From NCBI RefSeq assembly GCF_051903065.1, contig NZ_CP178438.1: 64,000 nt of DNA, one strand, 5' to 3'. The DNA is from Escherichia coli. Its GTDB lineage: Bacteria > Pseudomonadota > Gammaproteobacteria > Enterobacterales > Enterobacteriaceae. This document shows, in pieces, positions 56,701 through 59,700 of the stretch (positions are counted from its first letter, which is position 1; every line of letters begins with the position of its first letter). Position numbers: made by a program.

Positions 56701-59700
56701 ACGATACCATTGCCAGAGTTGTATCCTGTATCAGTCCTGCAAAATTTCACGAGTGCTTTATTAACTGGATGCGTGACTGCCATTCTTCAAATGATAAAGA
56801 CGTCATTGCAATTGATGGAAAAACACTCCGGCATTCTTATGACAAGAGTCGCCGCAGGGGAGCGATTCATGTCATTAGTGCGTTCTCAACAATGCACAGT
56901 CTGGTCATCGGACAGATCAAGACAGATGAGAAATCTAATGAGATCACAGCTATCCCTGAACTTCTTAACATGCTGGATATTAAAGGAAAAATTATCACAA
57001 CTGATGCGATTGGTTGCCAGAAAGATATCGCAGAGAAGATACAAAAACAGGGCGGTGATTATTTATTCGCTGTAAAAGGAAATCAGGGGCGGCTTAATAA
57101 AGCCTTTGAGGAAAAATTTCCACTGAAAGAATTAAATAATCCAGAGCATGACAGTTACGCAATGAGTGAAAGAGTCACGGCAGAGAAGAGATCCGTCTTC
57201 ATAATGTTTGCGATGTCCCTGATGAACTTATTGATTTCACGTTTGAATGGAAAGGGCTGAAGAAATTATGCGTGGCAGTCTCCTTTCGGTCCATAATAGC
57301 AGAACAAAAGAAAGAGCCAGAAATGACGGTCAGATATTATATCAGTTCTGCTGATTTAACCGCAGAGAAGTTCGCCACAGCAATCCGAAACCACTGGCAC
57401 GTGGAGAATAAGCTGCACTGGCGTCTGGACGTGGTAATGAATGAAGACGACTGCAAAATAAGAAGAGGAAATGCAGCAGAATTATTTTCAGGGATACGGC
57501 ACATTGCTATTAATATTTTGACGAATGATAAGGTATTCAAGGCAGGGTTAAGACGTAAGATGCGAAAAGCAGCCATGGACAGAAACTATCTGGCGTCAGT
57601 CCTTGCGGGGAGCGGGCTTTCGTAATCTTGCCCTGGAATGCTGACAGATAAGAATGATTGTGCCAGAATTGAAGCTATAAGCGGACTGGCAGAAAGAAAA
57701 GATAATCGTGTTATAACTGCTATAATTTATGAACTGCAAAAAAACATAATTTTTGATGAAGTTATTATTTTGGCAGGTATTTTAGGTGATATTAAACTAC
57801 ATCCTATTCAAAAAAATATATTAAATGAATTTAATGATGAGGATGTCATTGGCAATATAAAGTCAGCAATACAACAAATTATAAAATATAATTGATGGTG
57901 AAATATGCAGCGGTACTACCAATCGGTCAAGTATTCGCTGCTTTGATGATGATGTAAAATGATTGTTTTTGAACTGGATATAACAGCTTGGTAGGGAAGA
58001 AAGCATAACCCCACAAAATTCATTTACCATCGTCTACACTTACTCCTGTAAACCGTTCAGGAGCAGTAATGAATCTACAACGATTTGATGACAGCACCCT
58101 TATCCGCATTTTTGCTTTGCAGGAGTTACACCGTCTTAAAGAGCGAGGCTTAACGCGCGGGGCGCTCAACGATTATCACAGCCGCTATAAACTCGTCTTT
58201 CTGGCTCATTCCCAGCCGGAATACCGCAAACTTGGCCCGTTCGTGGCTGATATTCACCAGTGGCAAAATCTGGATGACTATTATAACCAGTACCGCCAAC
58301 GCGTAGTTGTTTTGCTTTCTCACCCCGCCAACCGACGTGACCACACCAACGTTTTGATGCACGTTCAGGGTTATTTTCGCCCGCATATTGATTCCACAGA
58401 ACGCCAGCAGCTGGCAGCGCTTATCGACAGTTATCGCCGTGGCGAGCAACCGCTTCTTGCGCCGCTGATGCGTATCAAACACTATATGGCGCTTTATCCT
58501 GACGCCTGGCTTTCAGGGCAGCGTTATTTCGAACTTTGGCCGCGTGTGATTAACTTGCGCCATTCAGGAGTTTTATGACTACTCATCTGGTCTGGTTTCG
58601 CCAGGATTTACGTCTGCACGATAATCTCGCGCTGGCTGCCGCCTGCCGCAATTCGTCTGCACGCGTGCTGGCGTTGTATATCGCTACACCACGCCAGTGG
58701 GCGGCGCATAATATGTCGCCGCGTCAGGCTGAACTTATCAATGCTCAACTGAACGGGCTACAAATCGCGCTGGCGGAAAAAGGTATTCCTTTATTGTTCC
58801 GTGAAGTGGATGACTTTGCCGCCAGCGTCGAAATAATTAAACAGGTGTGCGCGGAAAACAGCGTTACTCATCTTTTTTATAACTATCAGTATGAGGTGAA
58901 TGAGCGGGCGCGGGATGTGGAAGTTGAAAGAGCGCTGCGTAACGTGGTGTGTGAAGGATTTGATGACAGCGTGATCCTGCCGCCTGGCGCGGTGATGACC
59001 GGCAATCATGAGATGTACAAAGTCTTTACGCCTTTTCAAAATGCCTGGCTGAAACGGCTGCGGGAAGGGATGCCGGAGTGCGTCGCTGCACCAAAAGTTC
59101 GTAGTAGCGGATCGATAAAGCCCGCGCCATCCATTACGCTGAATTATCCTCGTCAGTCTTTCGATACTGCGCATTTCCCGGTGGAAGAAAAAGCGGCGAT
59201 TGCACAATTACGCCAGTTTTGCCAGAACGGTGCCGGAGAGTATGAGCAACAACGAGATTTTCCGGCAGTGGAAGGCACCAGCCGTTTGTCCGCCAGCCTG
59301 GCAACGGGCGGGTTATCACCTCGCCAGTGTTTGCATCGCCTGTTGGCGGAACAGCCGCAGGCGCTGGACGGTGGGGCCGGTAGTGTCTGGCTTAGTGAGC
59401 TGATCTGGCGCGAGTTCTACCGTCATCTGATGACGTATTACCCCTCGTTGTGTAAACATTGTCCGTTTATTGCCTGGACGGATCGTGTGCAGTGGCAGAG
59501 CAATCCCGCACATTTACAGGCCTGGCAGGAAGGCAAAACGGGATACCCGATTGTCGATGCTGCCATGCGTCAGCTTAACAGCACTGGCTGGATGCATAAC
59601 AGGCTACGGATGATTACAGCCAGTTTTCTGGTGAAAGATTTGTTGATCGACTGGCGCGAAGGCGAGCGATATTTCATGTCGCAGCTGATTGATGGTGATT

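What the first reader, a model, noticed from the sequence alone, without database searches (positions are those of the whole stretch)
57638..57895. AT-rich orphan ORF with helical-repeat character beside the H-repeat element
The 85-aa ORF MLTDKNDCARIEAISGLAERKDNRVITAIIYELQ... lies in low-GC DNA between the transposase remnant and ybgA. It has a weak HEAT/PBS-lyase-like repeat pattern and could be cargo or a fragment of a larger accessory gene. Coding status is uncertain.
Basis: inference. Interest (0 to 1): 0.3.

Follow-up and report, generated by a model that had tools for sequence, protein, structure and literature searches.

The report
Truncated Rhs immunity gene remnant
The 85-codon ORF is the leftover tail of a HEAT-repeat immunity gene of the YibA family, cut off by an ISEc1 (H-repeat) insertion sequence at the far end of the E. 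coli rhsC toxin locus; it is an ordinary decaying gene fragment.

Summary
The ORF (57638-57895, + strand, 85 aa, 27% GC) is real. RefSeq annotates it as "hypothetical protein". It is not an orphan. It aligns in register with residues 200-272 of E. coli YibA (PDB 1OYZ, E=1e-16) and with positions 202-283 of 285 of the YibA model NF007244 (E=3e-24). Its AlphaFold model (pLDDT 89.6, five helices) superposes on the C-terminus of 1OYZ (TM 0.84).

YibA is the HEAT-repeat protein encoded just after rhsA; it is reported to neutralise the RhsA C-terminal toxin, which scores as Pfam Ntox34.

IS-free relatives carry longer versions (143-232 aa; about 290 aa reconstructed across two frameshifts) at the same place upstream of ybgA. 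In three of them a short Ntox34-like tail precedes the gene.

In the window, ISEc1 (56345-57635) ends two bases before the ORF's ATG, which is a native internal Met codon. The 5' 70% of the gene is absent, and there is no Shine-Dalgarno sequence. The lineage has changed conserved residues. Only 35 of 5426 complete E. coli genomes keep the segment.

Verdict: a 3' pseudogene remnant of an orphan Rhs immunity gene, most likely non-functional. Low interest.

The parts
57636..57895 (+). 3' remnant of a YibA-family (Imm-HEAT) immunity gene, about the last 29% of the gene. The ORF as called is 57638-57895 including the stop. Its ATG is a native internal Met codon, equivalent to M200 of YibA.
   Evidence: phmmer to 1OYZ residues 200-272, E=1e-16. 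NF007244 positions 202-283 of 285, E=3.2e-24, 85.7 bits against a cut-off of 275. Homology to IS-free loci starts at exactly 57636. AF2 model pLDDT 89.6; 1OYZ is the top PDB match with TMq 0.84 and rmsd 1.7 A.
56345..57635 (+). ISEc1 / H-repeat (ISAs1 family) element, about 1291 bp, with ends CCAGGG...CCCTG(G). The transposase is frameshifted here (56490-57260 and 57272-57625). Its right end truncates the HEAT gene.
   Evidence: Thousands of other genomic copies match only window ~56344-57639. K-12 H-rpt copies align to 56345-57635. PGAP note: 'ISAs1 family transposase, frameshifted'. The transposase stop TAA (57623-57625) is in the same frame as the 85-aa ORF.
57896..58005 (+). Non-coding DNA downstream of the ancestral gene. 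It is retained with the remnant and, like the remnant, is absent from K-12.
   Evidence: K-12 homology resumes only at window 58006, whereas L012 and L004 align continuously from 57636.
58069..58578 (+). ybgA (DUF1722), the first core gene beyond the distal border of the rhsC element.
   Evidence: PGAP annotation. It is conserved next to the HEAT gene in every related locus.
50833..55032 (+). Main rhsC gene (1399 aa) of the element that hosts the remnant.
   Evidence: ORF list. PGAP: 'RHS element core protein'.
55029..55598 (+). ybfC, which overlaps the rhsC stop codon. It is the presumed cognate immunity gene of this RhsC C-terminus (inference from position).
   Evidence: No Pfam hit.
55767..56069 (+). 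Orphan Imm-NTF2-2 immunity gene with no adjacent toxin, lying left of the IS.
   Evidence: Pfam PF15631, E=1.8e-20. PGAP: 'NTF2 fold immunity protein'.

Best explanation
The ORF is the 3' stump of an orphan Rhs immunity gene. The ancestral gene encoded a HEAT-repeat alpha-solenoid of about 290 aa, a paralogue of E. coli YibA (Imm-HEAT class). It sat as the last module of the rhsC element, just upstream of ybgA, and followed a toxin-coding sequence of the Ntox34 type. Such a protein would have worked by binding and neutralising that toxin when delivered by neighbouring cells. This step is inferred from the reported RhsA-CT/YibA pair and from the gene pairing. The gene was already decaying: frameshifts and stops occur in IS-free relatives. 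In the window's lineage an ISEc1/H-repeat element now abuts codon ~206, and everything upstream (about 70% of the gene plus the toxin tail) is gone. What remains is open from a native internal Met to the native stop, which is why it is called as an 85-aa ORF. It keeps two HEAT hairpins and the C-terminal capping helix. It has no ribosome-binding site or evident promoter of its own and shows relaxed constraint. It is most likely a non-functional pseudogene fragment on its way to deletion, as has already happened in K-12 and about 99% of E. coli.
For: - Family identity: the ORF matches 1OYZ (YibA) residues 200-272, E=1e-16, and NF007244 positions 202-283 of 285, E=3e-24.
- Full-length relationship: a roughly 290-aa protein, conceptually reconstructed by joining three reading frames of L006 across two frameshifts with a short patch from L004, aligns with YibA residues 5-272, E=2e-49.
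- Fold: five helices, pLDDT 89.6, and 1OYZ is the best PDB match (TMq 0.84).
- Longer versions at the same site without an IS: 143, 145, 148 and 232 aa, with frameshifts or stops in L004, L006 and L019.
- Junction: homology to IS-free loci begins at 57636 and the IS ends at 57635.
- Missing 5' part: it is absent from the whole window (tblastn).
- Toxin pairing: RhsA-CT is Ntox34, E=1e-43. A 28-aa Ntox34-like tail precedes the paralogue in L004, L006 and L009 (54% identity, E=6e-5). The intact 288-aa Salmonella homologue P0011 directly follows a 67-aa Ntox34 ORF.
- Literature: yibA neutralises the growth block caused by RhsA-CT (Hill lab, as cited in PMC3150448). Ntox34 is listed with Imm-HEAT immunity (PMC3482391).
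- Decay: there is no Shine-Dalgarno sequence (anti-SD duplex -2.4 kcal/mol, against -6.0 to -9.2 for ybgA, ybfC and the ISEc1 transposase and -3.7 for the NTF2 gene). All 9 differences from the closest relative are non-synonymous. L58, conserved in 9 of 10 aligned sequences, is Q only here.
- Further decay in variants: other E. coli copies carry an 8-aa deletion, a frameshift or an N-terminal loss (P0004-P0006).
- Rarity: only 35 of 5426 complete genomes retain the segment. K-12 lacks 57636-58005.
Against: - The ORF is intact and at least 99% identical in all 35 complete genomes that carry it, and its cluster has 63 member sequences. These genomes are too close to each other to tell selection from recent common descent.
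- The AF2 model is confident, so the fragment could in principle fold.
- The transposase stop lies 12 nt upstream in the same frame. Coupled re-initiation in strains with an intact transposase cannot be excluded.
- No expression data were available.
- Immunity function was not tested here for any member of this paralogue group.
Confidence: 0.9

Rival explanations
1. The fragment is a functional mini-protein. A truncated immunity module of two HEAT hairpins plus a cap would still be made, for instance by read-through transcription from ISEc1 and re-initiation after the transposase stop. It would still bind a toxin or have acquired another role.
For: The ORF is intact in all 35 carrier genomes. 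The predicted fold is confident. The transposase TAA is 12 nt upstream in the same frame, and the transposase is intact in some carriers such as L002. Orphan immunity genes can be expressed (PMC3150448).
Against: Only 29% of the family model is present. There is no Shine-Dalgarno sequence. No promoter-like site lies upstream of the ATG, and the scan was not enriched overall: 5 sites against 2.6 +/- 1.6 in shuffles, with both + strand sites inside the ORF. All changes relative to the nearest relative are non-synonymous and they hit conserved positions. Other strains carry deletions and frameshifts in the ORF. About 99% of E. coli have lost the segment. The transposase is frameshifted in this window.
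Confidence: 0.05
2. The ORF is passenger ('cargo') DNA carried by the H-repeat/ISEc1 element.
For: It lies immediately next to the IS and has a similarly low GC content.
Against: Thousands of ISEc1 copies end at window ~57635 and do not include the ORF. The same sequence is linked to ybgA in loci with no IS. Within E. coli it occurs only at this one chromosomal site.
Confidence: 0.01
3. The ORF is a chance open frame in AT-rich intergenic DNA.
For: ORF length alone is only marginally unusual, reached by about 4% of shuffles. Pfam finds nothing in the fragment alone.
Against: In-register homology to YibA, E=1e-16, and to NF007244, E=3e-24, and 86-94% identity to longer HEAT proteins.
Confidence: 0.01

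Closest known systems
YibA of E. coli K-12 (b3594; PDB 1OYZ; NCBIfam NF007244/PRK09687 'putative lyase'), the HEAT-repeat protein encoded directly downstream of rhsA
   Same: Same family and same register. The ORF aligns to YibA 200-272 at 48% identity (tblastn; phmmer E=1e-16). The reconstructed ancestor aligns to YibA 5-272. It has the same HEAT alpha-solenoid fold, the same kind of locus (an rhs element) and the same toxin class upstream (Ntox34) in relatives.
   Different: Only the last 85 of about 290 residues remain. It is a distinct paralogue, about 36% identical to YibA overall. It sits at rhsC rather than rhsA, has no toxin gene next to it in the window, and is truncated by ISEc1.
Orphan toxin/immunity modules at the distal end of rhs and cdi loci (Poole et al. 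2011, PMC3150448; Imm-HEAT with Ntox34 in Zhang et al. 2012, PMC3482391)
   Same: It lies at the 3' end of an rhs element, after the main rhs/rhsI pair and another orphan immunity gene (Imm-NTF2-2). In relatives it is preceded by a toxin C-terminal remnant. Disruption by IS elements is described for such arrays.
   Different: Functional orphan immunity genes are full-length. This one is a 3' stump, and its relatives at this locus are themselves frameshifted.
The K-12 rhsB-locus HEAT fragment next to yhhI (ISEc1)
   Same: It is another YibA-family gene truncated by an ISEc1 copy inside an rhs element.
   Different: There the 5' part survives (codons 1-117, 96% identical to YibA, with an internal stop) and it abuts the left IS end. 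Here the 3' part of a different paralogue abuts the right IS end. The two are not halves of one gene.

Membership tests
YibA / NF007244 (PRK09687) HEAT-repeat immunity family (Imm-HEAT) | Significant, in-register sequence similarity to YibA and to the family model | tested here: met
   1OYZ residues 200-272, E=1e-16. NF007244 positions 202-283 of 285, E=3.2e-24.
YibA / NF007244 (PRK09687) HEAT-repeat immunity family (Imm-HEAT) | Full-length protein of about 280-290 aa that reaches the curated cut-off (275 bits) | tested here: not met
   85 aa and 85.7 bits, covering only the last 29% of the model. The 5' part is absent from the window. The ORF is therefore a fragment of a family member, not an intact member.
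YibA / NF007244 (PRK09687) HEAT-repeat immunity family (Imm-HEAT) | HEAT-type helical-hairpin solenoid fold | tested here: met
   The AF2 model has 5 helices and pLDDT 89.6. Foldseek top hit is 1OYZ, TMq 0.84, rmsd 1.7 A over 83 columns. This is a prediction only.
YibA / NF007244 (PRK09687) HEAT-repeat immunity family (Imm-HEAT) | Encoded immediately downstream of an Ntox34-type toxin-coding sequence in an Rhs/polymorphic-toxin locus | tested here: inconclusive
   The window has the rhs element context, but no Ntox34 sequence precedes the ORF, only the IS. In IS-free relatives an Ntox34-like tail precedes the gene. In Salmonella a 67-aa Ntox34 ORF precedes the intact homologue. RhsA-CT is Ntox34.
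YibA / NF007244 (PRK09687) HEAT-repeat immunity family (Imm-HEAT) | Neutralises the cognate toxin | not testable with these tools
   Reported only for YibA against RhsA-CT (Hill lab, as cited in PMC3150448).
Pfam HEAT_2 / HEAT / HEAT_PBS repeats | Score above the gathering threshold | tested here: not met
   The fragment alone has 0 Pfam hits even at E<=10. The longer relatives P0009-P0011, YibA and the reconstruction do pass HEAT_2 and HEAT.
Phycobilin (PBS) lyases CpcE/F, the source of the 'putative lyase' label | Membership of a lyase equivalog model | tested here: not met
   YibA scores 12.6 bits against a cut-off of 330 on CpcE NF058502 (E=0.07), and the ORF has no hit. The 'lyase' name reflects repeat similarity only.
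ISEc1/H-repeat passenger gene | Lies between the IS termini and travels with IS copies | tested here: not met
   The IS ends at 57635. Other ISEc1 copies lack the ORF, and IS-free loci have it.

The most novel reading that the evidence does not exclude
The ISEc1-truncated stump is still translated, for example by re-initiation after the in-frame transposase stop 12 nt upstream. In that case the two-hairpin-plus-cap fragment would retain enough of the toxin-binding surface to give partial immunity against an Ntox34-type Rhs toxin, making it a minimal immunity module created by an IS.
Probability: 0.03. Interest if true: 0.45.

Novelty: new member of a known kind. Interest (0 to 1): 0.1.

Why it matters
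It matters mainly for annotation. The 'hypothetical protein' (WP_104773200.1 / WP_000954499.1 and relatives) should be labelled as a C-terminal fragment or pseudogene of a YibA-family HEAT-repeat immunity protein. The locus is also a clear example of how Rhs elements erode from their distal end: an orphan Ntox34/Imm-HEAT module decays by frameshifts, is truncated by ISEc1, and is then lost entirely in most E. coli. Nothing here challenges current understanding of Rhs toxin/immunity systems.

Tried and rejected
1. Pfam on the 85-aa ORF alone gave no hit. The identification needed PDB and NCBIfam searches and longer homologues.

2. I looked for the missing 5' part elsewhere in the window, on the idea of a simple insertion with the other half left of the IS. 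tblastn with the longer homologues found nothing. The IS flanks show no target-site duplication.

3. I tested whether the 5' HEAT fragment that abuts the left end of ISEc1 (yhhI) at the K-12 rhsB locus is the other half of this gene, split by IS-IS recombination. This was rejected. That fragment is 96% identical to YibA codons 1-117, whereas the window's remnant is only 48% identical to YibA 200-270, and the two do not abut.

4. I tested IS cargo and rejected it on the IS boundaries and the IS-free loci.

5. The promoter/terminator scan was uninformative: 5 promoter-like sites against 2.6 +/- 1.6 in shuffles, none upstream of the ATG on the + strand, and no terminator.

6. The inverted-repeat search did not pick up the IS termini by itself. 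The ends were defined by comparison with other copies.

7. A literature search for 'YibA' plus 'HEAT' returned mostly noise, because the term also matches author names.

8. The second homologue search did not list YibA itself, presumably because of the word prefilter. The YibA relationship rests.

Full report
**1. Observation**

The ORF exists exactly as described: 57638-57895, + strand, ATG start, 85 codons, with the quoted translation.

- The window is the E. coli kdp-rhsC-ybgA-phrB-dtpD region and is 100% identical over the test segment to strain 23CRST027.
- The gene order is ybfA, rhsC (50833-55032), ybfC (55029-55598), an Imm-NTF2-2 immunity gene (55767-56069), a frameshifted ISAs1-family/ISEc1 transposase (56490-57260 and 57272-57625), the 85-aa ORF (PGAP: 'hypothetical protein' WP_104773200.1), then ybgA (58069-58578).
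- The ORF is 27% GC. Local 300-nt windows are about 30% GC, against about 50% in ybgA and phrB.
- ORF length alone is weak evidence: about 4% of shuffles of the 370-nt segment give an equally long stop-free run.
- Pfam finds nothing in the 85 aa.

**2. What it is**

The ORF is a fragment of a YibA-family gene.

- A phmmer search of PDB sequences gives one strong hit: YibA of E. coli (1OYZ), residues 200-272, E=1e-16, aligned colinearly from the ORF's first residue.
- NCBIfam NF007244 (PRK09687 'putative lyase', the YibA equivalog model, 285 positions) matches at positions 202-283, E=3.2e-24. The score of 85.7 bits is far below the 275-bit cut-off because only the last 29% of the model is present.
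- An AlphaFold2 model built on a 10-sequence alignment has pLDDT 89.6 and five helices: two HEAT hairpins plus a capping helix. Its best PDB match is 1OYZ, with TMq 0.84 and rmsd 1.7 A over 83 columns.

Longer relatives show what the ORF came from.

- The protein search found relatives 86-94% identical over all 85 residues but 143-145 aa long. It also found N-terminal pieces of 148 aa that end where a stop codon interrupts the frame.
- Their contigs place the gene at the same site, immediately upstream of ybgA-phr at the end of an rhs element, with no IS (L004, L006-L010, L019).
- Three-frame translation shows that these copies are themselves broken by frameshifts or stops.
- A conceptual reconstruction of about 290 aa joins three reading frames of L006 across two frameshifts, with a short patch from L004. 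It aligns with YibA residues 5-272, E=2e-49.
- A 232-aa version (P0009, 89% identical over the ORF) lies at the same place in Escherichia sp. E4742.
- Intact 288-aa homologues occur in E. fergusonii (P0010, 57% identity to the reconstruction) and Salmonella (P0011 and P0012, 50%).

**3. The junction**

- Comparison with thousands of other ISEc1 copies and with the K-12 H-repeat copies puts the element at 56345-57635, about 1291 bp, with ends CCAGGG...CCCTG(G).
- Homology of the window to the IS-free loci L019, L012 and L004 begins at exactly 57636 (alignment).
- The ORF's ATG (57638) is therefore a native internal Met codon. It corresponds to M200 of YibA and to the 'IRMLTDK' Met of the relatives, and it lies two bases beyond the IS end.
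- The frame is closed upstream by the transposase's own TAA (57623-57625), which happens to be in the same frame.
- The 5' 70% of the gene is nowhere in the window, and the IS flanks carry no target duplication. The IS is therefore associated with a deletion or an IS-IS recombination, not a simple insertion.
- K-12 lacks window 57636-58005 altogether; there the H-repeat abuts DNA about 60 bp upstream of ybgA.
- Only 35 of 5426 complete E. coli genomes carry the segment, always once, at this site and at 99% identity or more.

**4. How the ancestral gene worked (inferred) and the state of the remnant**

- yibA lies directly after rhsA.
- The RhsA C-terminus scores as Pfam Ntox34, E=1.4e-43.
- Poole et al. 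2011 summarise work from the Hill laboratory: the RhsA C-terminal region blocks recovery of stationary-phase cells, and expression of yibA neutralises this (PMC3150448).
- Zhang et al. 2012 list Ntox34 with 'Imm-HEAT' as its immunity partner (PMC3482391).
- In L004, L006 and L009 the paralogue is preceded by a short remnant similar to the end of RhsA-CT, inside the Ntox34 domain: 54% identity over 28 aa, E=6e-5 to 3e-4.
- The intact Salmonella homologue follows a 67-aa Ntox34 ORF.
- The ancestral unit was therefore an orphan Ntox34-tail/Imm-HEAT module at the distal end of rhsC. The protein would have acted as a toxin-binding immunity factor. That step is inference.

The remnant looks dead.

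- It has no Shine-Dalgarno sequence. The anti-SD duplex is -2.4 kcal/mol, against -6.0 to -9.2 for ybgA, ybfC and the ISEc1 transposase and -3.7 for the NTF2 gene.
- It has no promoter-like site upstream.
- All 9 nucleotide differences from the nearest relative (L012) are non-synonymous.
- In the conserved 'LLPVL' motif, L58 is L in the other nine aligned sequences and Q only here, and the preceding L is H.
- Other E. coli copies carry an 8-aa deletion, a frameshift or an N-terminal loss (P0004-P0006).

**5. Rivals**

- A functional mini-protein cannot be excluded without expression data, but it is unlikely (confidence 0.05).
- IS cargo and chance ORF are both refuted: cargo by the IS boundary and the IS-free loci, chance by the homology.
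- I also tested whether the 5' HEAT fragment at the left end of ISEc1 (yhhI) in the K-12 rhsB locus is the missing half. It is not: it is 96% identical to YibA codons 1-117, a different paralogue, and it does not abut the remnant.

**6. Comparison, novelty, verdict**

- The ORF is a fragment of a member of a known family (YibA/NF007244, Imm-HEAT), in a known kind of locus (an rhs element with orphan immunity genes and H-repeats), truncated by a known IS.
- The specific rhsC-distal paralogue and its stump are not annotated as such. That is an annotation gap, not a biological surprise.
Its 'fragment of a larger accessory gene' alternative is right, and 'orphan' and 'cargo' are wrong.
- Interest is about 0.1.

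Noticed in passing
L017 6656-7006 (E. coli BW25113/K-12 rhsB locus), next to yhhI at 7147-8283: A second YibA-family gene truncated by ISEc1. A 117-codon 5' fragment, 96% identical to YibA and carrying an internal stop, ends at the left end of the yhhI ISEc1 copy. ISEc1 or H-repeat truncation of HEAT immunity genes therefore recurs in rhs elements.
   Followed up: partly
L013-L016 7001-7867 (E. fergusonii-type contigs): An intact 288-aa YibA-family gene (P0010) stands alone between nikR and a GntR-family regulator, with no Rhs gene nearby. In E. coli K-12 the gene after nikR is rhsB. This looks like a retained stand-alone immunity gene at an otherwise empty rhs site.
   Followed up: no
window 56490-57625: The ISEc1/H-repeat transposase is split by a frameshift into 256-aa and 117-aa ORFs in this strain. 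It is intact (378 aa) in O157:H16 Santai and other carriers of the remnant.
   Followed up: no
window 55767-56069: An orphan Imm-NTF2-2 immunity gene (PF15631, E=1.8e-20) has no toxin-coding sequence directly upstream. It is called 100 aa here and 75 aa in strain Santai.
   Followed up: no
window 54571-55598: The variable C-terminus of this RhsC (after the conserved core ends at about 54570) and the overlapping downstream gene ybfC have no Pfam toxin or immunity domain hit. This toxin/immunity pair is uncharacterised by family.
   Followed up: no
L002 6567-6785, against the window 56345/56346 junction: Strain O157:H16 Santai has about 219 bp more than the window immediately left of the ISEc1 copy. 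I did not examine what it is; a partial IS end is one possibility.
   Followed up: no
L012 4394-5232 and 6828-7696 (Escherichia sp. E4742 rhsC locus): This locus carries two YibA-family genes. One is 96% identical to YibA but frameshifted. The other is the 232-aa paralogue related to the window's remnant. They are separated by an orphan Rhs C-terminus (311 aa) and a 149-aa gene.
   Followed up: partly
window 57863-58030 (- strand): A 55-aa ORF on the opposite strand overlaps the end of the remnant. A similar ORF occurs in L004, but the frame is not kept in L006, so it is probably a chance ORF.
   Followed up: partly
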